Of a stretch of 64,000 bases of DNA, positions 6,029 through 43,183 are shown in pieces. The notes below the pieces were generated by a model, which saw only the letters and a program-made list of their open reading frames with translations, was not told the origin of the DNA and made no database searches. This DNA comes from Pristiophorus japonicus (Eukaryota), in the NCBI RefSeq assembly GCF_044704955.1, contig NW_027252691.1, positions 62,001 through 126,000 of the forward strand, in the 5' to 3' direction. Position numbers and translations under genes: made by a program. The first letter of the stretch is position 1; each line of letters starts with the position of its first letter.

Positions 6029-6165
6029 TTATACATTTTCACCTCCCGTCCCGTGCTGGGAAAGTGGGAGCTCCACACGGCCCCGGAGCTCTGCTCCATC
6101 CGGAGTTTGTATGATGCTAAAAGGGAGCAGATCGTGTGGACCATAACACGCTGTCTCACCTGGTC
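6029..6165 (-). CDS. candidate secretory-tail terminal exon of the short (2-C-domain) Ig heavy chain: GPGETACYGPHDLLPFSIIQTPDGAELRGRVELPLSQHGTGGENV*
   Basis: The acceptor (gttcgcctgttcAG) is phase 1 and matches the CH2 donor. The frame is open for 45 aa to TAA, AATAAA follows, and the sequence is non-repetitive. I could not recognise homology to known tails. Confidence 0.45.
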
Positions 6166-6344
6166 CTGAACAGGCGAACCAGAGACACGAGCTGCGCTTA
6201 AAGGGGAGCTGGGGACGGGTCACTTCAAATCTGATGTGGGGGATCAATATTTCAGTGAGTGGTCAATCGATGGAACACGTTCCCTCAGGAGAGGGTGCAG
6301 CAGCTCGTGGCAATTCATTCAAAGCAGATTTATTTCCTACCTGT

Positions 6345-7035
6345 GGGTGTATGTGCAGAAATCGCAGAAGGTTGAGAGGAGATTTGACAGAGGTGTTCTC
6401 AGGTTGGGAAAGCAGTTATAAAGGCTTCCAGGATCCTGGGCTTCATAAACCGAGACACAGAGTACTGCCCGTGGGAATGATGATGGACCTGTATAAAACA
6501 CGGGTTCGACCCCAGCTGGAGTATTGTGTCCAATTCTGGGCCCCGCACTTTAGGAAGGATGTGAAGGCCTTAGAGAGAGTGCAGAGGGGATTTCCGAGAA
6601 TGGTTCCAGGGATGAGGGACTTCAGTGACGGGGATAGACTGGAGAAACTGGGGTTGTTCCCCTTGGAGCAGAGAAGGTTGAGAGGAGATTTGATTGAAGT
6701 GTTCACAATCATGAGGGGTCTGGACAGAGGTCGAGAGAAACTGTTCCCATTGGGGGAAGGGTCAGGAACCAGAGGGACACAGATTTAAGGCGATTGGCAG
6801 AAGAACCAAAGGGATGTAAGAAAATACTTGTTTACGCAGCGAGTGGTTGGGATCTGGAATTCACGGCCTGAGAGGGTGGGGGAGGCAGACTCAATCCTGC
6901 TTTCAAAAGGGAGTTGGATAAATATCTGAAGGGAAAAATATTGGCGGGCTACGGGGAAAGGGCGGGGAGTGGGACTGGCTGGGGTCAGCACGGGCTCGAT
7001 GGGCTGACTGGCCTTTCGTGCTGTGACCATTCTCT
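6345..7035 (+). mobile_element. older CR1 LINE 3' fragment
   Basis: ORF 6234-6788 contains RPQLEYCVQFWAP...RRLRGDLIEVF. Confidence 0.85.
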
Positions 7036-7410
7036 GGTTCTAGTCTATAAAATAACATTTGGGAGACAGTAGGAAGGGAACAGGTAGGAGGTGAAGGTAT
7101 CGATGGGCCGCCCGTTTCACGCTCCGCACCATTATCCTTTCCATTGAAGTCAGCGGAGAGTAAAATCGGGCGAGAGTGTAAACGGGTGACCAGCCCGACC
7201 CCGGCAGTTTCCCCGCCCAGCGCCTTGGGTTAAAGTTACTCTCTCTAAGTGTCGGTTCAATATCAACACGTAAAATACTAAACATCTCGCCTCTCTCACC
7301 AGGGGCGATATTCGGGACAGTGATTCACGAGTTAAGGGCGAACATTAGCGCATTAAGTTAATACAAGGCTGGATTACTGACCATATTCCTCCCCCTCAGA
7401 CACCACTTAC

Positions 7411-7716
7411 CCGCTTGATACCTCATGCTGATTGTGTTAGGGAGGTTCGAAGATCCATGGGCCACTTCACAGGTGTAGACCTCCCCCTTGGTCCATTCCT
7501 CCACAGGCACCGTCAGGTAAGCCACCGTTTCAAAGGTATCGGCGGCTCCCGGTCTGGAAGGGAGAACGATACCCTTCTGGTCCACCCCGCCTTTCTTCCA
7601 GGAAACCTTTAGTTTGTCGGGATAGAATCCAGATATGGCACAGCCCAGGACAGCGGTGGTTTGATTGTAGACAACCTCCGGCGATGGAACAAGCGAGATG
7701 AGGCTTGGAGCTTGAG
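7411..7716 (-). CDS. IGHW: Ig heavy-chain constant exon CH2 (C1-set), IgW-like
   Basis: Acceptor ttacAG and donor GTAAG bound a 306-nt phase 1-1 exon. It reads TQAPSLISLVPSPEVVYNQTTAVLGCAISGFYPDKLKVSWKK...EEWTKGEVYTCEVAH...ISMRYQA, with the C1-set Cys, FYP, Trp and YxCxVxH motifs and no stops. Confidence 0.9.
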
Positions 7717-8049
7717 CTGTAACACGTTACAAGATTTCAGATTAAATGGGGTTGGGATTGGCCGCGATCTAATGCAGTAGCAGAACGGGCCGGAGAGGCT
7801 GACTAGCCTACCCCTGTTCCTGTGTTCCCCTGGACAGATATCGAGGGGTATCAACAGAACAAGGGAATCCTGTGGATCTCTCAGGTGACCTTTCATCTCA
7901 CTCAGCCTGTCAATCCACCCCCAATTGTGACTGGATTCTCTCTCGGCCTCTCCTGAAATGTGTGGTTACTTTTCAGATCTGGGCTCGGAAAACCAGCCTC
8001 CCTTTTCACATTTCAGATGCTGACCGATTTGCTGTGTATGTTCACAGCA

Positions 8050-8480
8050 TCATAGAAATTTACAGCACGGAAGGAGGCCATTCGACCCATCGTGTCCACA
8101 CCGGCCGACCAAGAGCTACCCAGCCTAATCCCACTTTCCAGCTCTCGGTCCGTAGCCCTGTGGGTTACAGCACTTCAGGTGTACATCCAGGTCCTGTTTA
8201 AATAAGGTGAGGGTTTCTGCCTCTACCACCCTTTCAGGCCGTGAGTTCCAGACCCCCACCACCCTCTGGGTTAAAAACTTTCCCCTCAAATTCCCCCGAC
8301 CAATTACTTTAAATCTACGTCCTCTGGTTATTGACCCCTCGGCTAAGGGAAACGAGTCCTTCCTATCCACTCTATCCAGGCCCCTCATAATTTTATACAC
8401 CTCAATCAGGTCTCCCCTCAGCCTCCTCTGTTCCAAAGTAAACAACCCCAGCCGATCCAATCTGTCCTCACAGCCAATGT
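8050..8480 (-). mobile_element. CR1 LINE 3' fragment
   Basis: The end of ORF 8125-11106 reads DRLDRLGLFTLEQRRLRGDLIEVYK...TQRVVGVWNS. Confidence 0.85.
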
Positions 8481-8598
8481 TTCTGCAGGGACCTGAAGAT
8501 CCCACAGTGCCCATAACCGGGTCTGGGATCGGAGTCGACAGGGCTGTACTTTGTAACCTTCTCGCTGAGCCTGTGGGGAAACTACAATTATCCACAAG

Positions 8599-11500
8599 GT
8601 GCAGGCAGTGTGAGCCCGTACCTTCACCATTCCCCCTCCATGGTGCAGTGTGAGCCGTACTATCACCATTCCCCCTCCATGGTGCAGTGTGAGCCCGTAC
8701 CTTCACCATTCCCCCTCCATGGTGCAGTGTGAGACGTACCGACACCATTCCCCCTCCATGGTGCAGTGTGAGACGTACCGACACCATTCCCCCTCCACGG
8801 TGCAGTGTGAGACGTACCGACACCATTCCCCCTCCATGGTGCAGTGTGAGCCCGTACCGACACCATTCCCCCTCCATGGTGCAGTGTGAGACGTACCGAC
8901 ACCATTCCCCCTCCATGGTGCAGGCAGTGTGAGACGTACCGACACCATTCCCCCTCCATGGTGCAGGCAGTGTGAGACGTACCGACACCATTCCCCCTCC
9001 ATGGTGCAGTGTGAGACGTACCGACACCATTCCCCCTCCATGGTGCAGTGTGAGACGTACCGACACCACTCCCCCTCCATGGTGCAGTGTGAGCCCGTAC
9101 CGACACCATTCCCCCTCCATGGTGCAGTGTGAGACGTACCGACACCATTCCCTCTCCATGGTGCAGTGTGAGACGTACCGACACCATTCCCTCTCCATGG
9201 TGCAGTGTGAGACGTACCGACACCATTCCCCCTCCATGGTGCAGTGTGAGACGTACCGACACCATTCCCCCTCCACGGTGCAGTGTGAGACGTACCGACA
9301 CCATTCCCTCTCCATGGTGCAGTGTGAGACGTACCGACACCATTCCCCCTCCACGGTGCAGTGTGAGACGTACCGACACCATTCCCCCTCCACGGTGCAG
9401 TGTGAGACGTACCGACACCATTCCCCCTCCATGGTGCAGTGTGAGACGTACTGACACCATTCCCCCTCCATGGTGCAGTGTGAGACGTACTGACACCATT
9501 CCCCCTCCATGGTGCAGTGTGAGACGTACCGACACCATTCCCCCTCCATGGTGCAGTGTGAGACGTACCGACACCATTCCCCTCCATGGTGCAGTGTGAG
9601 ACGTACTGACACCATTCCCCCTCCATGGTGCAGTGTGAGACGTACCGACACCATTCCCCCTCCATGGTGCAGTGTGAGACGTACCGACACCATTCCCCCT
9701 CCATGGTGCAGTGTGAGACGTACCGACACCATTCCCCTCCATGGTGCAGTGTGAGACGTACCGACACCATTCCCCCTCCATGGTGCAGTGTGAGACGTAC
9801 CGACACCATTCCCTCTCCATGGTGCAGGCAGTGTGAGACGTACCGACACCATTCCCCCTCCATGGTGCAGTGTGAGACGTACCGACACCATTCCCCCTCC
9901 ATGGTGCAGTGTGAGACGTACCGACACCATTCCCCCTCCATGGTGCAGTGTGAGACGTACCGACACCATTCCCCCTCCATGGTGCAGGCAGTGTGAGACG
10001 TACCGACACCATTCCCCCTCCATGGTGCAGTGTGAGACGTACCGACACCATTCCCCCTCCATGGTGCAGTGTGAGACGTACTGACACCATTCCCCCTCCA
10101 TGGTGCAGTGTGAGACGTACCGACACCATTCCCCCTCCATGGTGCAGGCAGTGTGAGACGTACCGACACCATTCCCTCTCCATGGTGCAGTGTGAGCCCG
10201 TACCGACACCATTCCCCCTCCATGGTGCAGTGTGAGACGTACTGACACCATTCCCCCTCCATGGTGCAGTGTGAGACGTACTGACACCATTCCCCCTCCA
10301 TGGTGCAGGCAGTGTGAGACGTACCGACACCATTCCCCCTCCATGGTGCAGGCAGTGTGAGACGTACCGACACCATTCCCCCTCCATGGTGCAGTGTGAG
10401 ACGTACCGACACCATTCCCCCTCCATGGTGCAGTGTGAGACGTACCGACACCATTCCCTCTCCATGGTGCAGTGTGAGCCCGTACCTTCACCATTCCCCC
10501 TCCATGGTGCAGGCAGTGTGAGACGTACTGACACCATTCCCCCTCCATGGTGCAGTGTGAGACGTACCGACACCATTCCCCCTCCATGGTGCAGTGTGAG
10601 ACGTACTGACACCATTCCCCCTCCATGGTGCAGGCAGTGTGAGACGTACCGACACCATTCCCCCTCCATGGTGCAGTGTGAGACGTACTGACACCATTCC
10701 CCCTCCATGGTGCAGGCAGTGTGAGACGTACCGACACCATTCCCCCTCCATGGTGCAGTGTGAGACGTACTGACACCATTCCCCCTCCATGGTGCAGTGT
10801 GAGACGTACCGACACCATTCCCCCTCCATGGTGCAGTGTGAGACGTACCGACACCATTCCCCCTCCATGGTGCAGTGTGAGACGTACTGACACCATTCCC
10901 CCTCCATGGTGCAGGCAGTGTGAGACGTACCGACACCATTCCCCCTCCATGGTGCAGTGTGAGACGTACTGACACCATTCCCCCTCCATGGTGCAGTGTG
11001 AGACGTACCGACACCATTCCCCCTCCATGGTGCAGTGTGAGACGTACCGACACCATTCCCCCTCCATGGTGCAGTGTGAGACGTACCGACACCATTCCCT
11101 CTCCATGGTGCAGTGTGAGACGTACCGTCACCATTCCCCCTCCATGGTGCAGTGTGAGACGTACCGACACCATTCCCCCTCCATGGTGCAGTGTGAGCCC
11201 GTACCGACACCATTCCCCCTCCATGGTGCAGTGTGAGACGTACCGACACCATTCCCCCTCCATGGTGCAGTGTGAGACGTACCGACACCATTCCCTCTCC
11301 ATGGTGCAGTGTGAGACGTACCGACACCATTCCCCCTCCATGGTGCAGTGTGAGACGTACCGACACCATTCCCTCTCCATGGTGCAGGCAGTGTGAGACG
11401 TACCGACACCATTCCCCCTCCATGGTGCAGTGTGAGACGTACCGACACCATTCCCTCTCCATGGTGCAGTGTGAGACGTACCGACACCATTCCCTCTCCA

Positions 11501-13212
11501 TGGTGCAGTGTGAGACGTACCGACACCATTCCCTCTCCATGGTGCAGGCAGTGTGAGACGTACCGACACCATTCCCCCTCCATGGTGCAGTGTGAGACGT
11601 ACCGACACCATTCCCCCTCCATGGTGCAGTGTGAGACGTACCGACACCATTCCCCCTCCACGGTGCAGTGTGAGACGTACCGACACCATTCCCCCTCCAT
11701 GGTGCAGTGTGAGACGTACCGACACCATTCCCTCTCCATGGTGCAGTGTGAGACGTACCGACACCATTCCCTCTCCATGGTGCAGTGTGAGACGTACCGA
11801 CACCATTCCCCCTCCATGGTGCAGTGTGAGACGTACCGACACCATTCCCCCTCCATGGTGCAGTGTGAGACGTACCGACACCATTCCCCCTCCATGGTGC
11901 AGTGTGAGACGTACCGACACCATTCCTCCTCCATGGTGCAGTGTGAGACGTACCGACACCATTCCCCCTCCATGGTGCAGTGTGAGACGTACCGACACCA
12001 TTCCCCCTCCATGGTGCAGTGTGAGACGTACCGACACCATTCCCCCTCCATGGTGCAGTGTGAGACGTACCGACACCATTCCCCCTCCATGGTGCAGTGT
12101 GAGACGTACCGACACCATTCCCCCTCCATGGTGCAGTGTGAGACGTACCGACACCATTCCCCCTCCATGGTGCAGTGTGAGACGTACCGACACCATTCCC
12201 ACTCCATGGTGCAGTGTGAGACGTACCGACACCATTCCCCCTCCATGGTGCAGTGTGAGACGTACCGACACCATTCCCCCTCTATGGTGCAGGCAGTGTG
12301 AGACGTACCTTCACCATTCCCCCTCCATGGTGCAGTGTGAGACGTACCGACACCATTCCCCCTCCATGGTGCAGCGTGAGACGTACCGACACCATTCCCC
12401 CTCCATGGTGCAGTGTGAGACGTACCGACACCATTCCCCCTCCATGGTGCAGTGTGAGACGTACCGACACCATTCCCCCTCCATGGTGCAGTGTGAGACG
12501 TACCTTCACCATTCCCCCTCCACGGTGCAGTGTGAGACGTACCGACACCATTCCCCCTCCATGGTGCAGGCAGTGTGAGACGTACTGACACCATTCCCCC
12601 TCCATGGTGCAGGCAGTGTGAGACGTACTGACACCATTCCCCCTCCATGGTGCAGTGTGAGACGTACCGACACCATTCCCGCTCCATGGTGCAGTGTGAG
12701 ACGTACCGACACCATTCCCCCTCCATGGTGCAGTGTGAGACGTACCGACACCATTCCCCCTCCATGGTGCAGTGTGAGACGTACCGACACCATTCCCTCT
12801 CCATGGTGCAGTGTGAGACGTACCGACACCATTCCCCCTCCATGGTGCAGTGTGAGACGTACCGACACCATTCCCCCTCCATGGTGCAGGCAGTGTGAGA
12901 CGTACCGACACCATTCCCCCTCCATGGTGCAGTGTGAGACGTACCGACACCATTCCCCCTCCATGGTGCAGTGTGAGACGTACCGACACCATTCCCTCTC
13001 CATGGTGCAGGCAGTGTGAGACGTACCGACACCATTCCCCCTCCATGGTGCAGTGTGAGACGTACCGACACCATTCCCCCTCCATGGTGCAGTGTGAGAC
13101 GTACCGACACCATTCCCCCTCCATGGTGCAGTGTGAGACGTACCGACACCATTCCCCCTCCATGGTGCAGGCAGTGTGAGACGTACCGACACCATTCCCC
13201 CTCCATGGTGCA
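8599..13212. repeat. 39-bp minisatellite (ggtgcagtgtgagacgtaccgacaccattccccctccat)n with 43-bp (+gcag) variants, ~115 copies
   Basis: A highly homogeneous tandem array inside the CH1-CH2 intron. Confidence 0.97.
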
Positions 13213-13356
13213 ATAGTAAATGGTGTCAATCGGTGTGGGGCGGGAACTCGAGGCGCCGACAGCCAATCGGCAGCCCACTTGTAGCTCCGCCCCATTGTCC
13301 TCACCATTGACCTCGGTGTAGGAAGGATGGACAAAAGAGAAAACGCAAGTTAAATG

Positions 13357-16300
13357 GCGCACTATTACAGGGAGTGAATGGTGCCCTATTACAGGGGGTG
13401 AATGGAGCCTTAATACAGGGGCTGAATGGAGCCCTATTACAGGGGGTGAATGGAGCCCTATTACAGGGGGTGAATGGAGCCCTATTACAGGGGGTGAATG
13501 GTGCCCTATTACAGGGGGTGAATGGTGCCCTATTACAGTGGGTGAATGGTGCCCTATTACAGGAGGTAAATGGTGCCCTATTACAGGGGGTGAATGGTGC
13601 CCTATTACAGGGGGTGAATGGAGCCCTATTACAGGGGGGGAATGATGCCTTATTATAGGGGGTGAATGGTGCCCTATTACAGGGGGTGAATGGTGCCCTA
13701 TTACAGGGGGTGAATGGTGCCCGATTACAGGGGGTGAATGGTGCCCTATTACAGGGGGTGAATGGTGCCCTATTACAGGGGGTGAATGGTGCCCTATTAC
13801 AGGGGGTGAATGGAGCCCTATTACAGGGGGTGAATGGTGCCCTATTACAGGGGGTGAATGGTGCCCTATTACAGGGGGTGAACGGAGCCCTATTACAAGG
13901 GTGAATGGAGCCCGATAACAGGGGGTGAATGGAGCCCTATTACAGGGGGTGAATGGAGCCCTATTACAGGGGGTGAATGGTGCCCTATTACAGGAGGTGA
14001 ATGGTGCCCTATTACAGGGGGTGAATGGTGCCCTATTACAGGGGGTGAATGGTGCCCTATTACATGGGGTGAATGGTGCCCTATTACAGGGGGTGAATGG
14101 TGCCCTATTACAGGGGGTGAATGGTGCCCTATTACAGGGGGTGAATGGTGCCCTATTACAGGGGGTGAATGGTGCCCTATTACAGGGGGTGAATGGTGCC
14201 CTATTACAGGGGGTGAATGGTGCCCTATTACAGGAGGTGAATGGTGCCCTTTATAGGGGATGAATGGTGCCCTATTACAGGGGGTGAATGGTGCCCTATT
14301 ACAGGGGGTGAATGGTGCCCTATTACAGGGGGTGAATGGTGCCCTATTACAGGGGGTGAATGTGCCCTATTACAGGGGATGAATGGAGCCCTATTACAGG
14401 GGGTGAATGGAGCCCTATTACAGGGGGTGAATGGAGCCATATTACAGGGGGTGAATGGAGCCCTATTACAGGGGTTGAATGGTGCCCTATTACAGGGGGT
14501 GAATGGTGCCGTATTACAGGGGGTGAACAGTGCCCTATTACAGGGGGTGAACAGAGCCCTATTACAGGGGGTGAATGGTGCCCTATTACAGGGGGTGAAG
14601 TGTGCCCTATTACAGGGGGTGAATGGAGCCCTATTACAGGGGGTGAATGGAGCCCTATTACAGGGGGTGAATGGTGCCGTATTACAGGAGGTGAATGGTG
14701 CCCTATTACAGGGGGTGAATGGTGCCCTATTACAGGGGTGAATGGTGCCCTATTACAGGCGGTGAATGGCGCCCTATTACAGGGGGGAAATGGAGCCCTA
14801 TTACAGATGGTGAATGTGCCCTATTACAGGGGGGGAATAGTGCCCTATTACAGAGGGGGAATGGTGCCCTATTACAGGGGGGGAATGGAGCCCTATTACA
14901 GGCGGTGAATGGTGCCCTATTACAGGGGGGGAATGGTGCCCTATTACAGGGGGTGAATGTGCCCTATTACAGGGGGTGAATAGTGCCCTATTACAGGGGG
15001 TGAATGGTGCCCTATTACAGGGGGTGAATGGTGCCCTATTACAGGGGGTGAATGGTGCCCTATTACAGGGGGTGAATGGTGCCCTATTACAGGAGGTGAA
15101 TGGTGCCCTATTACAGGAGGTGAATGGTGCCCTATTACAGGGGGTGAATGGTGCCCTATTACAGGGGGTGAATGGTGCCCTATTACAGGGGGTGAATGGT
15201 GCCCTATTACAGGGGGTGAATGGTGCCCTATTACAGGGGGTGAATGGTGCCCTATTACAGGGGGTGAATGGAGCCCTATTACACGGGGTGAATGGTGCCC
15301 TATTACAGGGAGTGAATGGTGCCCTATTACAGGGGGTGAATGGAGCCCTATTACAGGGGGTGAATGGAGCCCTATTACAGGGAGTGAATGGTGCCCTATT
15401 ACAGGGGGTGAATGGAGCCCTATTACAGGGGGTGAATGGAGCCCTATTACAGGGGGTGAATGGTGCTCCATTACAGGAGGTGAATGGTGCCATATTACAG
15501 GAGGTGAATGGTGCACTATTACAGGGGGTGAATGGTGCACTATTACAGGGGGTGAATGGTGCCCTATTACAGGAGGTGAATGGTGCCCTATTACAGGGGG
15601 AATGGTGCCCTATTACAGGGGGGGAATGGTGCCCTATTACAGGGGGTGAATGGTGCCCTATTACAGGGGGTGAATGTGCCCTATTACAGGGGGAATGGTG
15701 CCCTATTACAGGGGGGGAATGGAGCCCTATTACAGGCGGTGAATGGCGCCCTATTACAGGGGGAGAATGAAGCCCTATTACAGAGGGTGAATGTGCCCTA
15801 TTACAGGGGGGGAATAGTGCCCTATTACAGGGGGGGAATGGTGCCCTATTACAGGGGGTGAATGGTGCCCTATTACAGGGGATGAATGTGCCCTATTACA
15901 GGGGGGGAATAGTGCCCTATTACAGGGAGGGAATGGTGCCCTATTACAGGGGGTGAATGGTGCCCTATTACAGGGGATGAATGTGCCCTATTACAGGGGA
16001 TGAATGTGCCCTATTACAGGGGGTGAATGGTGCCCTATTACAGGGGGTGAATGGTGCCCTATTACAGGGGGTGAATGGTGCCCTATTACAGGGGGTGAAT
16101 GGTGCCCTATTACAGGGGGTGAATGGTGCCCTATTACAGGGGGTGAATGGTGCCCTATTACAGGATGTGAATGGTGCCCTATTACAGGGTGTGAATGGTG
16201 CCCTATTACAGGGGGTGAATGGAGCCCTATTACAGGGGGTGAATGGAGCCCTATTACAGGGGGTGAATGGAGCCCTATTACAGGAGGTGAATGGTGCCCT

Positions 16301-16403
16301 ATTACAGGGGGTGAATGGTGCCCTATTACAGGGGGTGAATGTGCCCTATTACAGGGGGTGAATGTGCCCTATTACAGGGGGTGAATGGTGCACTATTACA
16401 GGG
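13357..16403. repeat. 24-bp minisatellite (ggtgccctattacagggggtgaat)n, ~125 copies
   Basis: Direct tandem units give VNGALLQG repeat pseudo-ORFs. Confidence 0.97.
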
Positions 16404-17620
16404 TTGCAGGGACCAAGGAGACCGGTGGGTTTGTGAACACAAACCTTTGAAGGGCAGCAGGACAAGTGGCCGAGATTTTTCAGTAAAAAGCACTCGGGAT
16501 CCTGGGCTTTATAAACCGAGGCGTAGAGCACAAAGGCAATGGAATTATTCCCCACAACCGCCGTAAATCACCGGCCATGCCCCAGCTGGTGGATTGTGGC
16601 GGATTGCCGGAGCCGCACTGGACCAAGGAATTCAAGGCCACGGAGCGACCGCAGGGGAGAGTTACTGAAATGGATGAGGGGCTTCAGTGACATGGGGCGA
16701 CCACAGAAGCTGGGATTGTTCTCCTTCTGTACAGCAGAGAAGGTTCAGGGGGGAATGTAATGGATGTGTCCCACACACCGTGAGCTGTACCCTCCCTCTG
16801 TGTACACTCTATCCCCACACACCGTGGGCTGTACCCTCCCTCTGTGTACACTCTATCCCCACACACACTGTGGCTGTACCCCCTCCCTCTGTGTACACTC
16901 TATCCCCATATACACCGTGCGCTGTACCCCCTCCCTCTGTGTACACTCTATCCCCACACACCGTGGGCTGTACCCTCCCTCTGTGTACACTCTATCCCCA
17001 CACACACTGTGGCTGTACCCCCTCCCTCTGTGTACACTCTATCCCCATATACACCGTGCGCTGTACCCCCTCCCTCTGTGTACACTCTATCCCCACACAC
17101 CGTGGGCTGTACCCTCCCTCTGTGTACACTTTATCCCCACAAACACCGTGGGCTGTACCCTCCCTCTGCATGCACTCTATCCCCATATACACCGTGCACT
17201 GTACCCCCTCCCTCTGTGTACACTCTATCCCCACACACACCGTGGGCTGTACCCTCCCTCTGTGTACACTCTATCCCCACACACACCGTGGGGGAATGTA
17301 ATGGATGTGTGCCAGATTGTGAGGGTTTCAGTGGATGGGGGAAACTGTTGCCACTGCCGGGAGGGTGGGTGGCCAGAGGTCACAGATAGAATTCAATTGG
17401 CAAAAAATCCAGGGGGAAGATGAGGAATTTAGCAAAAAAAATGTTGTTATACCCTCAGCGGCAAGCTAAGATCTGGAATGCAGTGTCTGGGAGAGGGGGT
17501 GGGAGCAGACTTAATCATGTTTTTCCAAAGGGAATTGGATAAATACTTGAATCGGGAAAATCTGCAGGGCTTTGGGGAAAGAGCGGGGGGGGAGTGGGAA
17601 TAATGTGATACCTCGGATAT
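16403..17620 (+). mobile_element. degraded CR1 LINE 3' fragment interrupted by a minisatellite insertion
   Basis: Remnants include cccagctgg, gagaaggttcaggggg, ggaattggataaatacttgaa and gggctttggggaaagagcggggg. Confidence 0.65.
16770..17289. repeat. second copy of the ~43-bp minisatellite, flanked by a 21-bp direct duplication
   Basis: The unit is the same as at 3612-5803. gggggaatgtaatggatgtgt occurs at both 16749-16769 and 17290-17310. Confidence 0.9.
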
Positions 17621-17639
17621 TGCTGGTACAGGCGCGAGA

Positions 17640-18975
17640 GGGTGGGGGGGAAGGGGAGAGGAAGGGGAGTGTGTGTGTGGGGGGGGGGAGGGGGAGTGTG
17701 TGGGGTGGGGGAGTGTGTGGGGATGGGGGGGAGGGGTGTTGGGAGTGTGTGTGTGTGTGGGGGGGGAGGGGAGTGTGTGGGAAGGGGGGGAAGTGTGTGG
17801 GTGGGGGGGGGGGGAGTGTGTGTGCCGGGGGGGAGGGGGAGTGTGTGGGGATGGGGGGAGGGGTGTTGGGAGTGTGTGTGGATGGGGGGAGGGGACGGGG
17901 AGTGTGTGGTGAGGGGGCTAGTGTGTGGGGAGGGGGGGGAGTGTGTGGGGATGGGAGGGGAGAGGGGGGGGAGTGTGTGGGGAGGGGGGGACGTGTGTGG
18001 GGTGTGTGTGTGGGGGGGGGGAGTGTGTGTGCCGGGTGGGGGAGGGGGGAGTGTGTGGGGATGGGGGAGGGGTGTTGGGAGTGTGTGTGGATGGGGGGAG
18101 GGGACGGGGAATGTGTGGTGAGGGGGTTAGTGTGTGGGGAGGGGAGGGGGGGAGTGTGTGGGGAGGGGGGGGGATGGGGGGGAGAGGGGGAGTGTGTGGG
18201 GTGGGGGGAATGTGTGGGGAGGGGGGGGAGTGCGTGGGGAGGGGAGGGGAATGTGTGGGGAGGGGGGGAATGTGTGGGGAGGGGGGGGGAGTGTGTGGGG
18301 AGGGGGTGGGAGTGTGTGGGGATGGGGGGGAGAGGGGGGAGTGTGTGGGGAGGGGGGGGAGTATGTGGGGAGGGGGGTAGTGTGTGGGAAGGGGGGGAGT
18401 GTGTGGGAAGGGGGGAGTGTGTGGGGAGAGGGGGGAGTGTGTGGGGAGGGGGGGGAGTGCGTGGGGAGGGGGAGGGGAGTGTGTGGGGATGGGGGGAGAG
18501 GGGGGAGTGTGTGGGGAGAGGGGGAGTGTGTGGGGATGGGGGGAGAGGGGTGAGTGTGTGGGGAGAGGGGGGAGTGTGTGGGGAGGGGGGGTAGAGTGTG
18601 TGGGGAGGGGGGGGGAGTGTGTGGGGAGGGGGGGGAGTGTGTGGGGAGGGGGGGTAGAGTGTGTGGGGAGGGGGGGTAGAGTGTGTGGGGAGGAAGGGGG
18701 GAGTGTGTGGGGAGGTGGGGGGAGTGTGTGGGGAGGGGGGGGCAGTGTATGGGGAGGGGGGGAGTGTGTGGGGAGGGGGGGAGTGTGTGGGGAGGGGGGG
18801 GAGTGTGTGGGGAGGGGTGGGGAGTGTGTGGGGAGGGGGTGGGAGTGTGTGGGGAGGGGGGGGGAGTGTGTGTGGGGATGGGGGGGAGAGGGGGGAGTGT
18901 GTGGGGAGAGCGGGGAGTGTGTGGGGAGAGGGGGGAGTGTGTGGGGAGGGGGGAGTGCGTGGGGAGGGGGAGGGG
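17640..18975. repeat. G-rich low-complexity repeat (gggggagtgtgtggggag)n
   Basis: Dense G runs on the + strand, prone to G-quadruplex formation. Confidence 0.93.
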
Positions 18976-19312: not shown

Positions 19313-19633
19313 TTTTAGGTCCAGGTTCTGGGGTCTGAGCCACCACCATTTCACTGTCCTTGTACCCCGCCTTGCAGTAGTAGACCCGATTAGTTTCCCA
19401 ATCTGCTGCAGAGACTTTGAGCACACTGCTCATCGTGTACGCCATATTTTGCCCCAAGACAGCCGGATACTTCTTCACTCCAGTCGTGATGTCCGCACCA
19501 TTAGTGGACCATGTCTGAATGATGCTCTTGGGCTGAAAGTCTTTGACCAGGCACAGGAAGGTGATCCCATCTTGGTTGGAGTTGCTGCCACAGGAAGGGT
19601 TGGCGATGTAGACAGATGGTTTGGACTGAACAA
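19313..19633 (-). CDS. IGHW: Ig heavy-chain constant exon CH1 (C1-set), IgW-like
   Basis: Acceptor cttccAG and donor GTGAG bound a 321-nt phase 1-1 exon that is in frame with JH. It reads [35 protein letters not shown]...TWS...KYPAVL...[25 protein letters not shown]. The extra N-terminal Cys (PSC) is typical of a light-chain-bonding CH1. Confidence 0.9.
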
Positions 19634-20337: not shown

Positions 20338-20611
20338 GATTAATGCAGTGACATTGATTTGGAGATTAACGCAGTGACATTGATTGGGAGATTAACGCAG
20401 TGACATTGATTGGGAGATTAACGCAGTGACATTGATTGGGAGATTAACGCTGTGACATTGATTGGGAGATTAACGCAGTGACATTGATTGGGAGATTAAC
20501 GCACTGACATTGATTGGGGGATTAATGCAGTGACATTGATTGGGAGATTAATGCAGTGACATTGATTGGGGGATTAACGCAGTGACATTGATTGGGAGAT
20601 TAACGCACTGA
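20338..20611. repeat. 26-bp minisatellite (attgattgggagattaatgcactgac)n, block 1
   Basis: Tandem units that continue at 22138 and 24722 after LINE insertions. Confidence 0.92.
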
Positions 20612-22139
20612 CAATTATAGCAGATGCATTCGTTATAATCGACCAAAATTCTCTGGACTCTGGGGAGGTACCAGCGGATTGGAAAGCAGCTAATGTAACG
20701 CCTCTGTTTAAAAAAGGGGGCAGACAAAAGGCAGGTAACTATAGGCCAGTTAATTTAACATCTGTAGTGAGGAAAATGCTTGAAACCATCATTAAGGAAG
20801 AAATAGCAGGACATCTAGATAGGAATAGTGCAATCAAGCAGACGCAACATGGATTCATGAAGGGGAAATCATGTTTAACTAATTTACTTCTTTGAGGATA
20901 TAACGAGCATGGTGGATAGAGGTGTACCGATGGATGTGGTGTATTTAGATTTCCAAAAGGCATTCGATAAGGTGCCACACAAAAGGTTACTGCAGAAGAT
21001 AAAGGTACGCGGAGTCAGAGGAAATATATTAGCATGGATCGAGAATTGGCTGGCTAACAGAAAGCAGAGAGTCAGGATAAATGGGTCCTTTTCAGGTTGG
21101 AAATTGGTGGTTAGTGGTGTGCCACAGGGATCGGTGCTGGGACCACAACTGTTTACAATATACATAGATGACCTGGAAGAGGGGACAGAGTGTAGCGCAA
21201 CAAAATTTGCAGATGACACAAAGATTAGTGGGAAAGCGGGTTGTGTAGAGGACACAGAGGCTGCAAAGAGATTGAGATAGGTTAAGCGAATGGGCTAATG
21301 TTTGCCAGATGGAATACAATGTCGTAAAATGTGAGGTCATCCACCTTGGAAAACAAAACATTAAAAGGGAATATTATTTGAATGGGGAGAAATTGCAACA
21401 TACTGCGGTGCAGAGGGACCTGGGGGTCCTTGTGCATGAATCCCAAAAAGTTAGTTTGCAGGTGCAGCAGGTAATCAGGAAGGCGAATGGAATGTTGGCC
21501 TTCATTGCGAGAGGGATGGAGTACAAAAGCAGGGAGGTCCTGCTGCAACTGTACAGGGTATTGGTGAGGCCGCACCTGGAGTACTGCGTGCAGTTTTGGT
21601 CACCTTACTTAAGGAAGGATATACTAGCTTTGGAGGGGGTACAGAGACGATTCACTCGGCTGATTCCGGAGATGAGGGGGTTACCTTATGATGATAGATT
21701 GAGTAGACTGGGTCTTTAATCGTTGGAGTTCAGAAGGATGAGGGGTGATCTTATAGAAACATTTAAAAAAATGAAAGGGATAGACAAGATAAGAGGCAGA
21801 GAGGTTGTTTCCACTGGTCGGGGAGACTAGAACTAGGGGGCACAGCCTCAAAATACAGGGGAGCCAATTTAAAACTGAGTTGAGAAGGAATTTCTTCTCC
21901 CAGAGGGTTGTGAACCTGTGGAATTCTCTGCACAAGGAAGCAGTTGAGGCTAGCTCATTGAATGTATTCAAATCACAGATAGATAGATTTTTAACCAATA
22001 AGGGAATTAAGGGTTACGGGGAGCGGGCGGGTAAGTGGAACTGAGTCCACGGCCAGATCAGCCATGATCTTGTTGAATGGTGGAGCAGGCTCGAGGGGCT
22101 AGATGGCCTACTCCTGTTCCTAATTCTTATGTTCTTATG
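20612..22139 (+). mobile_element. CR1 LINE, 5'-truncated and frameshifted
   Basis: ORFs carry [23 protein letters not shown] and KFADDTK, followed by a (ttcttatg)n tail. Confidence 0.93.
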
Positions 22140-22752
22140 ATTGGGAGATTAATGCACTGACATTGATTGGGAGATTAATGCGCTGACATTGATTGGGAGA
22201 TTAATGCGGTGACACTGATTGGGAGATTAGTGCACTGATATTGATTGGGAGATTAATGCACTGACATTGATTGGGCGATTAATGCGGTGACACTGATTGG
22301 GAGATTAGTGCACTGATATTGATTGGGAGATTAATGCGCTGACATTGATTGGGAGATTAATGCGGTGACACTGATTGGGAGATTAGTGCACTGATATTGA
22401 TTGGGAGATTAATGCACTGACATTGATTGGGCGATTAATGCGGTGACACTGATTGGGAGATTAGTGCACTGATATTGATTGGGAGATTAATGCACTGACA
22501 TTGATTGGGAGATTAATGCGGTGACACTGATTGGGAGATTAGTGCACTGATATTGATTGGGAGATTAATGCACTGACATTGATTGGGCGATTAATGCGGT
22601 GACACTGATTGGGAGATTAGTGCACTGATATTGATTGGGAGATTAATGCACTGACATTGATTGGGAGATTAATGCACTGACATTGATTGGGAGATTAATG
22701 CACTGACATTGATTGGGAGATTAATGCAGTGACAGTGATTGGGAGATTAATG
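22138..22752. repeat. 26-bp minisatellite, block 2
   Basis: Same unit as block 1. Confidence 0.92.
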
Positions 22753-24721
22753 GAAACATAGAAACATAGAAAATAGGTGCAGGAGTAGGCCATTCAGCCC
22801 TTCTAGCCTGCACCGCCATTCAATGAGTTCATGGCTGAACATGCAACTTCAGTACAACATTCCTGCTTTCTCGCCATAACCCTTGATCCCCCGAGTAGTA
22901 AGGACTACATCTAACTCCTTTTTGAATATATTTAGTGAATTGGCCTCAACAACTTTCTGTGTTAGAGAATTCCACAGGTTCACCACTCTCTGGGTGAAGA
23001 AGTTTCTCCTCATCTCGGTCCTAAATGGCTTACCCCTTATCCTTAGACTGTGACCCCTGGTTCTGGACTTCCCCAACATTGGGAACATTCTTCCTGCATC
23101 TAACCTGTCTGAACCCATCAGAATTTTAAACGTTTCTATGAGGTCCCCTCTCATTCTTCTGGACTCCAGTGAATACAAGCCCAGTTGATCCAGTCTTTCT
23201 TGATAGGTCAGTCCCGCCATCCCGGGAATCAGTCTGGTGAACCTTCGCTGCACTCCCTCGATAGCAAGAATGTCCTTCCTCAAGTTAGGAGACCAAAACT
23301 GTACACAATACTCCAGGTGTGGCCTCACCAAGGCCCTGTACAACTGTAGCAACACCTCCCTGCCCCTGTACTCAAATCCCCTCGCTATGAAGGCCAACAT
23401 GCTATTTGCTTTCTTAACCGCCTGCTGTACCTGCATACCAACCTTCAATGACTGATGTACCATGACACCCAGGTCTCGTTGCACCTCCCCTTTTCCTAAT
23501 CTGTCACCATTCAGATAATACTCTGTCTCTCTGTTTTTAACCACCGAAGTGGATAACCTCACATTTATCCACATTATACTTCATCTGCCATGCATTTGCC
23601 CACTCACCAAACCTATCCAAGTCACTCTGCAGCCTCATAGCATCCTCCTCGCAGCTCACACTGCCACCTAACTTAGTGTCATCCGCAAATTTGGAGATAC
23701 TACATTTAATCCCCTCGTCTAAATCATTAATGTACAGTGTAAACAGCTGGGGCCCCAGCACAGAACCTTGCGGTACCCCACTAGTCACTGCCTGCCATTC
23801 TGAAAAGTCCCCATTTACTCCTACTCTTTGCTTCCTGTCTGACAACCAGTTCTCAATCCATGTCAGCACACTACCCCCAATCCCATGTGCTTTAACTTTG
23901 CACATTAATCTCTTGTGTGGGACCTTGTCGAAAGCCTTCTGAAAGTCCAAATATACCACATCAACTGGTTCTCCCTTGTCCACTCAACTGGAAACATCCT
24001 CAAAAAGTTCCAGAAGATTTGTCAAGCATGATTTCCCTTTCACAAATCCATGCTGACTTGGACCTATCATGTCACCTCTTTCCAAATGCGCTGCTTTGAC
24101 ATCCTTAATAATTGATTCCATCATTTTACCCACTACGGAAGTCAGGCTGACCGGTCTATAATTCCCTGTTTTCTCTCTCCGTCCTTTTTTAAAAAGTGGG
24201 GTTACATTGGCTACACTCCACTCGATAGGAACTGATCCAGAGTCAATGGAATGTTGGAAAATGACTATCAATGCATCCACTATTTCCAAGGCCACCTCCT
24301 TAAGTACTGTGGGATGCAGTCCACCAGGCTCTGGGGATTTATCGGCCTTCAATCCCATCAATTTCCCCAACACAATTTCCCAACTAATAAGGATTTCCCT
24401 CAGTTCCTCCTCCTTACTAGACCCTCTGACCCCTTTTATATCCGGAAGGTTGTTTGTGTCCTCCTTAGTGAATACTGAACCAAAGTACTTGTTCAATTGG
24501 TCTGCCATTTCTTTGTTCCCCGTTATGACTTCCCCTGATTCTGACTGCAGGGGACCTACATTTGTCTTTACTAACCTTTTTCTCTTTACATATCTATAGA
24601 AACCTTTGCAATCCGTCTTAATGTTCCCTGCAAGCTTCTTCTCGAACTCCATTTTCCCTGCCCAAATCAAAACCTTTGTCATCCTCTGCTGATTTCTAAA
24701 TTGCTCCCAATCCCCGAGTTC
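22753..24721 (-). mobile_element. CR1 LINE, 5'-truncated
   Basis: RT ORFs at 22849-23574, 23537-23983 and 23984-24682, plus a catagaaa tail. Confidence 0.93.
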
Positions 24722-35068: not shown

Positions 35069-36606
35069 TTTTAAAAACTGCTTCTTCCCCAAGGAAAACA
35101 AACTGAAGTGTCCTTAATTCCAACAATAAATCCCAAGATATTTTTAATATCCGTGCAATGCTGACTGAGGCTGTTCATTATACCGGATGGGCCTCATACA
35201 CTACATTACCGTATGAGGTTGATGGGTGTTTTTGTGACTGGAAGGATGTTTCCAGTGGGGTTCCGCAGGGCTCAGTACTGGGTCCCTTGCTTTTTCTGGT
35301 ATATATCAATGATCTAGACTTAAATGTTGGGGGTATGATTAAGAAGTTTGATACTAAAATTGGCCATGTGGTTGATAATGAAGAAGAATGCTGTGGACTG
35401 CAGGAAGATATCAATGTACTGGTCAGGTGGGCAGAACTGTGGCAAATGAAATACAAACCAAAGCTTTTACCGATATATAAAACGGAAAAGAGTGACTAAA
35501 GTAAATGTTGGTCCTTTAGAAGATGAGAAGGGGGATTTAATAATGGGAAATATGGAAATGGCTGAGACCTTAAACAATTATTTTGCTTCGGTCTTCACAG
35601 TGGAAGACACAAAAACCATGCCAGAAATTGCTGGTCACGGGAATGTGGGAAGGGAGGACCTTGAGATAATCACTATCACTAGGGGGGTAGTGCTGGACAG
35701 GCTAATGGATTTCAAGGTAGACAAGTCCCCTGGTCCTGATGAAATGCATCCCAGGGTATTAAAAGAGATGACGGATGTTATAGCAGATGCATTGGTTATA
35801 ATCTACCAAAATTCTCTGGACTCTGGGGAGGTACCAGCGGATTGGAAAGCAGCTAATGTAACGCCTCTGTTTAAAAAAGGGGGCAGACAAAAGGCAGGTA
35901 ACTATAGGCCGGTTAGTTTAACATCTGTAGTGGGGAAAATGCTTGAAACTATCATTAAGGAAGAAATTGCGGGACAGCTAGATAGGAATAGTGCAATCAA
36001 GCAGACGCAACATGGATTCATGAAGGGGAAATCATGTTTAACTAATTTACTGGAATTCTTTGAGGATATAATGAGCATGATAGATAGAGGTGTACCGATG
36101 GATGTGGTGTATTTAGATTTCAAAAAGGCATTCGATAAGGTGCCACACAAAAGGTTACTGCAGAAGATAAAGGTACGCGGAGTCAGGAAATGTAATAGCA
36201 TGGATCGAGAATTGGCTGGCTAACAGAAAGTAGACAGTCGGGATAAATGGGTCCTTTTCAGGTTGGAAATCAGTGGTTAGTGGTGTGCCACAGGGATCGG
36301 TGCTGGGACCACAACTGTTTACAATATACATAGATGACCTGGAAGAGGGGACAGTGTAGTGCAACTAAATTTGAGAATGACACTAAGATTAGTGGGAAAG
36401 CGGGTTGTGTAGAGGACACAGAGAGGCTGCAAAGAGATTTAGATAGGTTAAGCAAATGGGCTAAGGTTTGGCAGATGGAATACAATGTCGGAAAATGTGA
36501 AGTCATCCACCTTGGAAAAAAAACCGGAAAAGGGAATATTATTTGAATGGGGAGAAATTACAACATGCTGCGGTGCAGAGGGACCTGGGGGTCCTTGTGC
36601 ATGAAT

Positions 36607-36778
36607 TTTCTCTAAGATTCTTTTCCCATACCATTCGCCTCCAACCTTCCTCTTTCTGCTCATAGCTCTTGTGATGCCAACCCTTCCACTGCAGCCAGGG
36701 TTCATCCAATTCAGGATCTAATCTTGGGGCTGCAAAGACTCCAACCAGGCACAAAGAAAGTACACAGTAGATCTTCAT
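36607..36778 (-). pseudogene. CTSL: intronless 5' fragment of cathepsin L (signal peptide + start of I29 prodomain)
   Basis: MKIYCVLSLCLVGVFAAPRLDPELDEPWLQWKGWHHKSYEQKEEGWRRMVWEKNLR has the vertebrate cathepsin L pattern LD..W..WK..H.K.Y...EEGWRR..WEKNL (start of the ERFNIN region). Confidence 0.88.
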
Positions 36779-36957
36779 CCTTTCTTCTTCGCTCCCTGCC
36801 GCTCCCGGGCTACAATCTATCGTACTCGCGAGCGCCACCAGTTTTTATGGCTCGCGTCATCCCCGCACTGATACATTTTCAGCACTGATTGGCTGGCCCA
36901 TCCAGGCACGGACCACACCCAGTCACGAGATGCAGTGCTCAGAGTGTGCTGTCGATT
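36779..36957 (-). promoter_or_regulatory. captured cathepsin L 5' UTR and promoter-like sequence
   Basis: On the minus strand: TCTCGTGAC E-box/CLEAR-like motif (36922-36930), CCAAT (36888-36892), TGACG CRE half-site (36855-36859) and CATAAAAA TATA-like motif (36842-36849), ~65 nt before the ATG. The segment is CpG-rich. Confidence 0.6.
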
Positions 36958-37656
36958 CATGAATCCCAAAAAGTTAGTTTGCAGGTGCAGCAGGTAATCA
37001 GGAAGGCGAATGGAATGTTAGCCTTCATTGCGAGAGGGATGGAGTACAAAAGCAGGGAGGTCCTGCTGCAACTGTATAGGGTATTAGTGAGGCCGCACCT
37101 GGAGTACTGCGTGCAGTTTTGGTCACCTTACTTAAGGAAGGATATACTGGCTTTGGAGGGGGTACAGAGACGATTCACTAGGCTGATTCCGGAGATGAGG
37201 GGGTTACCTTATGATGATAGATTGAGTAGACTGGGTCTTTACTCGTTGGAGTTCAGAAGGATGAGGGGTGATCTTATAGAAACATTTAAAATCATGAAAG
37301 GGATAGTCAAGATAGAGGCAGAGAGGTTGTTTCCACTGGTCGGGGAGACTAGAACTAGGGGGCACAGCCTCAAAATATGGGGGAGCCAATTTAAAACAGA
37401 GTTGAGAAGGAATTTCTTCTCCCAGAGTCTGTGGAATTCTCTGCTCAAGGAAGCAGTTGAGGCTAGCTCATTAAATGTATTCAAGTCACAGATAGATAGA
37501 TTTTTAACCAATAAGGGAATAAGGGTTACGGGGAGCGGGTGGGTAAGTGGAGCTGAGTCCACGGCCAGATCAGCCATGATCTTGCTGAATGGCGGAGCAG
37601 GCTCGAGGGGCTAGATGGCCTACTCCTGTTCCTAATTCTTATGTTCTTATGTTCTT

Positions 37657-39433: not shown

Positions 39434-39534
39434 TGAAAGTCTACTTTGTGCTCTGCCCCGGCAGGGTTAGGGAGGGCCATTGAAGCTCCCTTTACCGCGA
39501 ACGGGCCATAAAGCTGCATCTCAAACAGATCATC

Positions 39535-40250: not shown

Positions 40251-40251
40251 C

Positions 40252-41092: not shown

Positions 41093-41575
41093 TAAGAACA
41101 TAAGAACATAAGAAATAGGAGCAGGAGTCAGCCATACGGCCCCTCGAGCCTGCTCCGCCGTTCAATAAGATCAATGGACTCAGCTCCATTTCCCTGCCCG
41201 CTTCCCATAACCCTTTATTCTCTTATTGCTTAAAAATCTATCTTCCTCCACCTTAAATATATTCAGTTACCCAACCTCCACAGCTTTCTGGGGCAGAGAA
41301 TTCCAGATTCATGACCCTCAGAGAAGAAATTCCTCCTCATCTGTTTTAAATGGGCGGCCCCTTATTCTGAAACTATGCCCCCAGTTCTAGATTCCCCCAC
41401 ACGGGGAAACATCCTCTCTGCATCCACCTTGTCGAGCCTCCTCAGAACCTTATATGTTTCAATAAGATCACCTCTCATTCTTCTGAACTCCAATATATAG
41501 GTCCAATCTGCTCAACCTTTCTTCATTAGACAACCCCTTCATCTCAGGAATTAACCGAGTGAACCTTCCCTGAAG
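41093..41575 (-). mobile_element. CR1 3' fragment
   Basis: A (taagaaca)n tail and a 3' RT remnant. Confidence 0.82.
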
Positions 41576-42282
41576 TGCTCCACAATACAGTATCAACAGG
41601 ACACAACCTTATTACACATGCAGCCGTTTGCTATCGGTCCGGCAGCTCGCTGGTTAATGCTAAACGCTTGTTGGTGTGAGACATGTTTGATAAACACAAG
41701 TCCCTGTTTCTCATTCTGTGCAAACTATTTGCCCTCCATCAGCACTGAAATATCCAGTGGAACCTGGAACTTATTCTGTTTTACATCTAAAAGCTGTTCC
41801 TTCAACGATTTTAACTGTAACCTTAAACAACAGTCTGTGACTCCAACTGTTAAATCCCGACACAATTGGATAATGTGTTTTAACTCGGATTATAACAAAC
41901 CCCTAAAGCGCCTGCAATGTCCTACCGTCCAAATGATCAAATCTCCACCCACAGAGCAAGTGTCCCAAAACTAGAATGTGGATCCCGCAGCTCAGACTGA
42001 ACACATCCTGGAAACCCAATAACCTCCTCATTTATTAGATTCCGGGAATCAATTCTGTGGGCTTAAATCTTAACCCTTAACACTCCATCCAGTTAGCAGA
42101 TGTCAGCCACAATTACTGGGTGTATTCTTAACTCGAAAGAATGGAGTCAGTCTCGGATAGAGTCGCGTAATTATTCTGAATATCTCACCGATTTCACACA
42201 TTCGTGTATTACCGAATTCGCTAAATAACGCAAATTAAGAAAATCAATATCAGATCAGGAAGGAATGAGAAATTTGTCTTAC

Positions 42283-42330
42283 CCGAAGTCACTGTCAGCG
42301 AGGTTCCTGTGCCCCAGTAAGCAAGATAGT
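42283..42330 (-). CDS. IGHJ: Ig heavy-chain JH gene segment (YLAYWGTGTSLTVTS)
   Basis: WGxG motif, VTS end, a phase-1 GTAAG donor at 42278-42282 and an adjacent heptamer CACAGTG. Confidence 0.95.
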
Positions 42331-42369
42331 CACAGTGCTCCGTCTCCTGGTCCCAGCAATGTAGGAACT
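42331..42369 (+). other. JH recombination signal (23-spacer) with degenerate nonamer
   Basis: CACAGTG at 42331-42337, 23-nt spacer, then GTAGGAACT (4/9 match to ACAAAAACC). Confidence 0.75.
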
Positions 42370-42704
42370 TCACCCGCACAAATATCTCACAATCTCAGGG
42401 TGTGGTGAAAATAAAAAGCTGCTTTTATCCTGGGAGCAGCAGCCGCCTGTATTTGGATCTGACAGTCCATCCTAAACCTGCTCCGGGTATTCATCACTCA
42501 GCTGGTTTTGCACTTTCCCTGTCAGTGGCTAGCAGCTCCTGCACATCGCCGAGAAACACACTCGCTCCTTATCACCTTTTATTCCCCACAAATCCACATT
42601 TCCCTCCCACAGTCCGAGTGGGCGATGATCCATGTGAGTGTGAGAGGCAGCAATGCGGAATCTGTGGGCACGGGCTGTGAATCAGCCGCTTATTTGTGGC
42701 GGGG

Positions 42705-42767
42705 AGTTTTTGTCAAGCTCTGCACTGCTGTATACCCAGCACAGTGCTTCACCTCAGCTCAAACACC
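42705..42767 (-). other. IGHD: DH2 segment (coding ~42733-42739, CTGGGTA) with 12/12 RSS; the J-proximal heptamer is mutated
   Basis: V-side RSS: CACAGTG 42740-42746, 12 nt, TCAAACACC. J-side RSS: AGTTTTTGT 42705-42713, 12 nt, TGCTGTA (TACAGCA on the other strand, no CAC). Confidence 0.85.
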
Positions 42768-43102
42768 GCCGCCAGAAGATCCAGCCCCAAACACAATGTC
42801 CCACCAACCTGCCGCTGGCTTTATGGCCCCTCAGTCTGTCTCCGTGTTCCACACACAGCAGCTGTCAAACCTGGGCTTCCAGGACTTTGTAAAATGGAGC
42901 TATAATCCACAGGGAGCTTTCCGTGTTCTTGGTCCCACATCTGTTACTCGCTGCTTTCCCCTTCCTTTCAAGTAATATCTTTAAAGAAAATTGCTTGCAC
43001 AGCCAGACTGTTTAATCGGGATCTGCTTTCTATCCAGGGGTGATGAAGCAAAGGCTGGTGAGATGGCCCGAAGAGTCCAATTTAAGCAGCTTTGGTGTGG
43101 CA

Positions 43103-43183
43103 GGTTTTTGAATGGAGGGAGCCCCCACCTCTCACACTGTGCCACCCAGTATAGGCACAGTGATACACAGCCGTACAATAACC
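43103..43183 (-). other. IGHD: DH1 segment (coding 43142-43155, CCTATACTGGGTGG) with 12/23 RSS
   Basis: GGTTTTTGA 43103-43111, 23 nt, CACTGTG 43135-43141 on one side; CACAGTG 43156-43162, 12 nt, ACAATAACC on the other. Confidence 0.93.

What the first reader, a model, noticed from the sequence alone, without database searches (positions are those of the whole stretch)
6029..43183. IgW-like cluster with intact constant exons but damaged V(D)J machinery: a possible 'constant-region-only' locus
Seen: JH, CH1 and CH2 are open and in phase with canonical splice sites. In contrast, the D2 3' heptamer lacks CAC, the JH nonamer matches consensus at 4/9, and no VH lies within 20 kb of D1. Known: shark IgH genes are V-D-D-J-C miniloci with V to J spanning about 2 kb, and VDJ from one cluster can be expressed with the C region of another. 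Inference: this locus may not rearrange itself. It could be kept as a C-region acceptor for inter-cluster switching or trans-splicing, or be expressed without V (possibly from the captured CTSL promoter). It could also simply be a young pseudogene.
Basis: partly seen in the sequence, partly recalled or inferred. Interest (0 to 1): 0.7.

Follow-up and report, generated by a model that had tools for sequence, protein, structure and literature searches.

The report
Rearrangement-dead shark IgW antibody gene
This shark IgW antibody gene still has its variable segment, pushed 105 kb away by repeats, but a 7-base deletion found only in this copy removes one cutting signal, so it likely cannot assemble a normal antibody and would at most make the known variable-less chain that a contig of a likely RNA run shows for sister copies.

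Summary
The locus is IgW, likely from the sawshark (98% to a named protein), one of about seven recent copies. 'No V' is wrong: an intact leader and V with a good signal lie 104.8 kb upstream of D1, beyond an 88-kb satellite. Exons CH3-CH6 and TM lie downstream and are open. The D2 3' heptamer loss is real and private (0 of 4 siblings): a 7-bp deletion across the RAG cut site that likely blocks every route to VDJ. The 4/9 J nonamer is shared by 5 of 5 unjoined copies, so it is a family trait. This copy's branch is very young (0.2% private change), so its intact C exons show no selection on it; the family's C exons are constrained (dN/dS 0.38). One likely RNA run holds a leader-to-CH1 contig, the known V-less IgW form, with sibling alleles rather than this copy's. 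I found no support for switching or a cathepsin promoter. The scan earlier noted a sibling locus and a like contig (e1-9952089). Open lead: the whole family may be drifting to V-less expression.

The parts
5868..5998 (-). Secretory tail exon of short IgW (43 aa, Cys-rich). CH3-CH6 with the long secretory tail and a TM exon lie beyond the window's left end (G000:C2079:56,792-50,123 and about 43,300), all open
7411..7716 (-). CH2 exon, open, C1-set
19313..19633 (-). CH1 exon, open, C1-set; 76% to Squalus IgW, 98% to sawshark IgW P0019
36604..36959 (-). Processed cathepsin L-like 5' fragment: three parent exons fused without introns, inside an antisense LINE in the J-C intron; present in 4 IgW copies
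42283..42330 (-). JH segment, open, GT donor in phase 1
42331..42369 (-). J 23-signal: perfect heptamer, weak nonamer (4 of 9), identical in 5 of 5 unjoined copies
42705..42732 (-). D2 3' 12-signal, heptamer broken by a private 7-bp deletion across the coding/heptamer border; nonamer intact
42733..42767 (-). Shortened D2 coding piece and its intact 5' 12-signal
43103..43183 (-). D1 (14 nt) with intact 5' 12-signal and 3' 23-signal
43699..48140 (.). Two LINE-type reverse transcriptase inserts between V and D1 (the CR1 and RTE labels are recalled)
48146..52720 (-). LTR retrotransposon with paired LTRs and stop-interrupted gag-pol (the Gypsy label is recalled); shared in whole or part with siblings C3915, C13 and C3873
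53096..64000 (.). Start of an 88-kb array of a 44-bp unit (G000:C2079:115,096-203,169) that makes up most of the V-D1 gap. Beyond it, outside the window's right end, lie the leader exon and the open V exon (V-set) with a perfect-heptamer 23-signal, minus strand, at G000:C2079:209,976-210,428
   Evidence: array; leader and V

Best explanation
This is a complete IgW heavy-chain cluster (leader, V, D1, D2, J, CH1-CH6, secretory and TM exons) in which a 7-bp deletion removed the CAC of the D2 3' signal, which likely makes VDJ assembly impossible, so the copy is likely a young non-rearranging gene whose only plausible product would be the known V-less leader-to-CH1 splice form. Shown: anatomy, deletion, V position, sibling states, a V-less contig with sibling alleles. 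Inferred: J (23 spacer) can only pair by deletion with a downstream-facing 12-signal, and the broken one was the only such signal; inversion routes also end at it. Inferred: the C exons are intact because the lesion is recent. Inferred, weaker: the deletion spans the RAG cut site with a 2-nt microhomology and may be a germline open-and-shut joint. Not shown: any transcript from this copy.
For: The deletion is in 1 of 5 unjoined copies. CAC is required for RAG cleavage (PMC9723617 passages; PMC12711392 abstract). V is present and open. The private branch is short: 19 of 9149 noncoding sites and 3 of 2048 exon sites, p 0.41; 1 synonymous and 2 replacement private changes. Run X1 has a 768-nt contig that covers CH1 to the exon borders and continues into the IgW leader and 5' UTR; leader and CH1 are in the same phase. 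The annotated protein P0019 is leader-CH1-CH2-tail. V-less IgW is described in dogfish and nurse shark (PMC5192425 passages).
Against: The X1 contig differs from this copy at 5 CH1 letters (4 listed; they match C3873 and C3915) and lacks this copy's 4-nt shorter 5' UTR, so expression of this copy is not shown. Its leader-to-CH1 intron would be about 129 kb and would cross the satellite. The deletion rests on one assembly and was not checked against DNA reads. RSS rules come from mammalian RAG. The short branch gives no power to exclude selection on this copy. The copy may be one allele of a locus that is intact on the other chromosome.
Confidence: 0.68

Rival explanations
1. The copy is actively kept as a V-less IgW producer, as part of a family-wide move away from V(D)J use.
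For: 3 of about 7 clusters are VDJ-dead by three different lesions (this one, the out-of-frame join in C3281, the V-D-J deletion in C221). Family C exons show dN/dS 0.38 (23 synonymous, 29 replacement changes, p 7e-4) and 0 indels where about 9 were expected. The J nonamer scores 1.1 against 5.0-12.9 for 18 IgM signal types. V-D1 gaps are 9.5-105 kb. The only CH1 contig in X1 is V-less.
Against: No constraint is measurable on this copy's own branch. V exons stay open with good signals and differ more than their flanks (10 of 282 and 13 of 282 against about 1.4%, p 0.008 and 0.0015; third pair p 0.07), as expected if V is still used. The RNA evidence is one run, contigs only, tissue unknown.
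Confidence: 0.14
2. The copy is kept as a C-region acceptor for inter-cluster switching or trans-splicing.
For: Reviews report V regions expressed with another cluster's C region in nurse shark, including IgW with IgM (PMC4279169 passages). All C exons are open.
Against: The single X1 contig on CH1 is joined to the IgW leader, not to a J or a foreign VDJ. Its C region is near-identical to siblings' (0.3-1.2% replacement sites), so a switch would add little. The young branch already explains the intact exons.
Confidence: 0.06
3. The cluster still rearranges, either because the deletion is an assembly error or through a cryptic signal.
For: V, D1, the D2 5' signal and the J heptamer are intact. 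A sibling's J has been joined at least once.
Against: A 7-bp non-homopolymer deletion is an unlikely read error (inference). No other CAC with a nonamer at 12 spacing faces J in this interval. The V-D1 gap is about 250 times the usual 0.4 kb (PMC2435157 passages).
Confidence: 0.08
4. The cathepsin L retrocopy supplies promoter and signal peptide for a V-less transcript.
For: It is sense-oriented and 97-100% identical to its parent; its first 181 bases are contiguous in the parent and hold CCAAT- and TATA-like words read by eye.
Against: It has lost its introns and ends inside an exon; by eye I saw only a weak in-phase donor. The observed V-less contig starts in the IgW 5' UTR. The insert is absent from C13 and C3281.
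Confidence: 0.03

Closest known systems
Elasmobranch IgW heavy-chain minilocus (short and long forms)
   Same: Leader-V-D1-D2-J with 23/12-23/12-12/23 signal order, CH1-CH2 plus Cys-rich short tail, CH3-CH6 long tail, TM exon; CH1 60-76% to other sharks' and rays' IgW-type chains.
   Different: V-D1 is 104.8 kb (siblings 9.5-78 kb) against about 400 bp in nurse shark IgH (PMC2435157 passages) and in this genome's IgM-type clusters. The D2 3' heptamer is lost and the J nonamer is weak.
V-less IgW (IgW delta V) of spiny dogfish and nurse shark
   Same: Leader spliced straight to the first C exon (PMC5192425 passages; contig).
   Different: Described as a minor splice form (8% of dogfish IgW transcripts) with six C domains. 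Here it is the only CH1 contig in one run, the annotated model is the two-domain short form, and some clusters can make nothing else. It is not shown for this copy.
Germline-joined and pseudogene IgH clusters of sharks; open-and-shut joints
   Same: RAG-like activity in shark germ cells (PMC2193156 passages). Open-and-shut joins with signal-end loss block later rearrangement (PMC2193590 passages). Sibling C3281 is VDJ-joined out of frame.
   Different: This copy is unjoined. The open-and-shut origin of its deletion is inferred only from position.
Catfish secreted V-less IgD from a locus linked to an Ig mu pseudogene
   Same: An IgD/W-class C region expressed without V from a non-rearranging setting (PMC5192425 passages).
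   Different: That locus is a dedicated, shown product. Here dedication and expression of this copy are untested.

Membership tests
IgW isotype | C domains closest to IgW, with the Cys-rich short secretory tail | tested here: met
   IgM-type CH1 in this genome is only 33-38% identical
IgW isotype | Long form exons CH3-CH6 and TM | tested here: met
Functional shark IgH minilocus | One open V with leader and 23-signal | tested here: met
Functional shark IgH minilocus | V to J within about 2 kb | tested here: not met
   about 106 kb
Functional shark IgH minilocus | All heptamers begin CAC | tested here: not met
   D2 3' heptamer
Functional shark IgH minilocus | Working J nonamer | tested here: inconclusive
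   Best register is 23, score below all 18 IgM signal types; a sibling J was joined once, at an unresolved time
Constant-region-only locus | V, D and J absent | tested here: not met
   All present; sibling C221 lacks D, J and nearly all of V
V-less IgW producer | Leader and CH1 spliceable in frame | tested here: met
V-less IgW producer | Transcript from this copy | tested here: inconclusive
   The one contig carries sibling alleles
Switch acceptor | Foreign VDJ joined to this C region | not testable with these tools
   Only contigs of one run were available
Pseudogene | Relaxed selection on coding exons | tested here: inconclusive
   3 private changes only

The most novel reading that the evidence does not exclude
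In this shark the whole IgW family is leaving V(D)J recombination. A common ancestor already had transposons between V and D1 and a weakened J signal, three of about seven clusters have since lost VDJ capacity by independent lesions, the C exons stay under purifying selection, and the main product is a V-less, antigen-independent leader-CH1-CH2 chain.
Probability: 0.2. Interest if true: 0.68.

Novelty: new variant of a known kind. Interest (0 to 1): 0.4.

Why it matters
As a single locus it is a damaged IgW copy, which is ordinary. Two things reach further. First, V-D1 gaps of 9.5-105 kb in one family break the 2-kb minilocus rule and give a natural series for testing whether shark IgH rearrangement depends on segment proximity. 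Second, the function of IgW and of its V-less form is open (reviews). A species where V-less chains may dominate, with clusters that can make nothing else, would make that question testable.

Tried and rejected
No RNA holder was listed by record: 1 run (X1), kind unknown; I treat it as RNA only because its contig stops and joins at exon borders. X1 has no contig over J; a part without cover proves nothing and is not counted. A search for outgroup IgW DNA in metagenome contigs found 0 of 76 pattern hits confirmed, so the normal IgW J signal of other sharks stays unknown. IgNAR-type J signals in this genome do not resemble it. Trees could not place the joined copy C3281 relative to the nonamer change (support 59 or less; repeat-only rows were left in). 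No V-bearing IgW protein of this species appeared among 17 longer hits, which is weak evidence. The idea that the J-upstream motif is a lost third D was considered (a 13-nt match to the IgM D1 5' signal, 40 nt from the heptamer) and left open; older orphan copies favour the 23-register nonamer. The frame ending at 6029 was rejected as the tail. The primary papers on shark switching and IgW splicing (PMC3839419, PMC3360817) are not held and their supplements were not seen; they may describe IgW signals or non-rearranging IgW genes. Paper searches listed nothing on this species' IgW or on long V-D gaps in shark IgH; subscription papers are not covered.
Full report
What is in the window. On the minus strand lie D1 (43142-43155, 12 and 23 signals intact), D2 (5' signal intact), J (42283-42330), CH1 (19313-19633), CH2 (7411-7716) and a secretory tail exon (5868-5998). 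J, CH1 and CH2 splice in frame. CH1 is 76% identical to Squalus IgW and 98% to P0019, named 'splenic IgW, short secretory form-like' of Pristiophorus japonicus, so the isotype is IgW and the species is likely that sawshark.

V is not missing. The window is G000:C2079:62,001-126,000. An open V exon with leader and a perfect-heptamer 23-signal lies at 209,976-210,428 on the same strand, 104,792 bases from D1. The gap has no N and holds two LINE inserts, an LTR element and an 88-kb array of a 44-bp unit. CH3-CH6 and a TM exon lie left of the window and are open.

The family. 7 of 150 scored CH1 matches are 95-100% identical. 5 of 19 DNA matches carry the whole D1-D2-J stretch. V-D1 gaps are about 9.5 (C3915), 10.9 (C13), 28.8 (C3873), 78 (C3019) and 104.8 kb, against about 0.4 kb in this genome's IgM-type clusters and in nurse shark (PMC2435157, passages). 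The retroelements in the gap are shared with siblings, so they predate the duplications. C3281 has V fused to J out of frame and lacks CH3-CH4. C221 has promoter, leader and 24 nt of V joined to the J-C intron, then a 200-N gap, then CH2 onward. C2472 has CH1 alone near a contig end and may be the part missing from C221 (inference from matching repeat arrays). Some unplaced contigs could be alleles rather than paralogues.

The two claimed lesions differ. The D2 3' heptamer is broken by a 7-bp deletion in this copy only; 4 of 4 siblings keep CAC. CAC is required for cleavage (PMC9723617, passages; PMC12711392, abstract). J needs a downstream-facing 12-signal and this was the only one; inversions end at the same signal or at a 23-23 pair, so VDJ is likely blocked (inference). 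The deletion spans the coding/heptamer border, where RAG cuts. Open-and-shut joins with signal-end loss block later rearrangement (PMC2193590, passages) and RAG-like activity in shark germ cells is reported (PMC2193156, passages), but chance placement is not excluded. The J nonamer is identical in 5 of 5 unjoined copies. It scores best at 23 spacing, 1.1 against 5.0-12.9 for 18 IgM signal types (a rough matrix whose set includes some doubtful signals); 2 of 2 older orphan copies score 6.1 and differ at position 2. In a mammalian nonamer screen, the bases found here at positions 2 and 5 go with poor function (PMC12711392, abstract and section 23). So the J signal may be weak family-wide, yet one sibling J has been joined, and trees cannot date that join.

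Selection. All 43 C-region exon copies examined are free of stops and gaps. Distinct changes across the family are 23 synonymous and 29 replacement, dN/dS 0.38, p 7e-4; about 9 indels were expected from intron rates and none seen. Gene conversion among copies could affect these counts. This copy's own branch has 19 of 9149 private noncoding changes and 3 of 2048 in exons (p 0.41), so nothing can be said about selection on it. V exons differ more than flanks in 2 of 3 close pairs, which argues that V is, or recently was, in use.

Expression. One run was listed, kind not on record. One 768-nt contig, depth 46.7, covers CH1 to its exon borders and continues into the IgW leader and 5' UTR. A second contig reads a V into its unrearranged signal. 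The CH1 alleles match C3873 and C3915, not this copy, and the 5' UTR is not this copy's. Contigs may merge paralogues and the animal may differ from the assembled one. P0019 has the same V-less layout with the tail variant of C3915, C3873 and C3019. V-less IgW is known: leader spliced to the first C exon, 8% of dogfish IgW transcripts (PMC5192425 and PMC6795676, passages; PMC4279169, passages). PMC12227049 (passages) added nothing on IgW signals.

The cathepsin fragment. It is a processed copy: three parent exons fused, 97-100% identical to a gene on C1, present in 4 IgW copies, cathepsin L-like. It includes promoter-like words by eye, but the V-less contig does not use it.

Verdict. It is most likely a young, rearrangement-dead IgW copy (0.68) that could make only the known V-less chain. 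The more interesting lead is family-wide: stretched V-D1 gaps, a weak J signal, three independently VDJ-dead clusters, constrained C exons and a V-less contig. I give that about 0.2, because open, diversifying V exons and a single run of contigs argue for caution. An earlier scan note (e1-9952089) describes a misjoined sibling and a like contig; I had seen both before the look-up, and it is not independent support.

Noticed in passing
G000:C221:46,914-47,985 and 70,411-90,421; G000:C2472:1-30,000: IgW promoter and leader with V (all but 24 nt), D1, D2 and J deleted, then a 200-N gap, then CH2-CH6. C2472 holds a lone CH1 between matching repeat arrays. Together they are possibly a true V-D-J-less IgW gene.
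   Followed up: partly
G000:C3281:80,630-81,446 (L041): IgW V joined to J out of frame with a 3-nt insert that matches D2; CH3-CH4 are absent from this cluster.
   Followed up: partly
window 36604-36959; parent G000:C1:103,751,782-103,753,048: Recent processed cathepsin L-like 5' fragment inside a LINE, including sequence with promoter-like words; shared by 4 IgW copies.
   Followed up: partly
window 42365-42395: A 13-nt stretch identical to the nonamer and spacer start of the IgM D1 5' signal sits 40 nt from the J heptamer, with similar flank; possibly a relic of a third D.
   Followed up: partly
G000:C11:162.80 and 162.90 Mb; C1:135.51 Mb; C12:55.63 Mb; C8:32.83 Mb: Older orphan IgW pieces (76-86% identical): two D2/J fragments that lack the J heptamer through a shared 13-nt deletion, and three truncated leader-V fragments.
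   Followed up: partly
L044-L058 (C1478, C3, C27, C3807, C90, C1937, C158, C687, C2057, C3347, C645): A group of clusters with IgM-type CH1 (label recalled) whose V is 60-67% identical to Squalus IgW V, against about 43-53% for most C23 clusters; possible old V exchange between isotypes.
   Followed up: no
L045, L058, L061, L062, L063: Several IgM-type clusters appear partly joined in the germline (D1-D2, D-J or D2-J).
   Followed up: no
window 53096-64000 and about 43590: The 44-bp satellite unit shares a 15-nt word with the 3' end of a LINE-like element just upstream of D1, so the satellite may derive from a LINE tail.
   Followed up: no
window 1-5800, 8605-18970, 20338-25187: Introns are filled with 24- to 46-bp minisatellites whose lengths differ greatly between sibling clusters (a 26-bp array exceeds 20 kb in C2472).
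   Followed up: no
L059, L060: The V exons of C3915 and C13 are only about 81% identical to this copy's V while nearby noncoding DNA is 93-98% identical, with differences in CDR2 and framework 3.
   Followed up: partly
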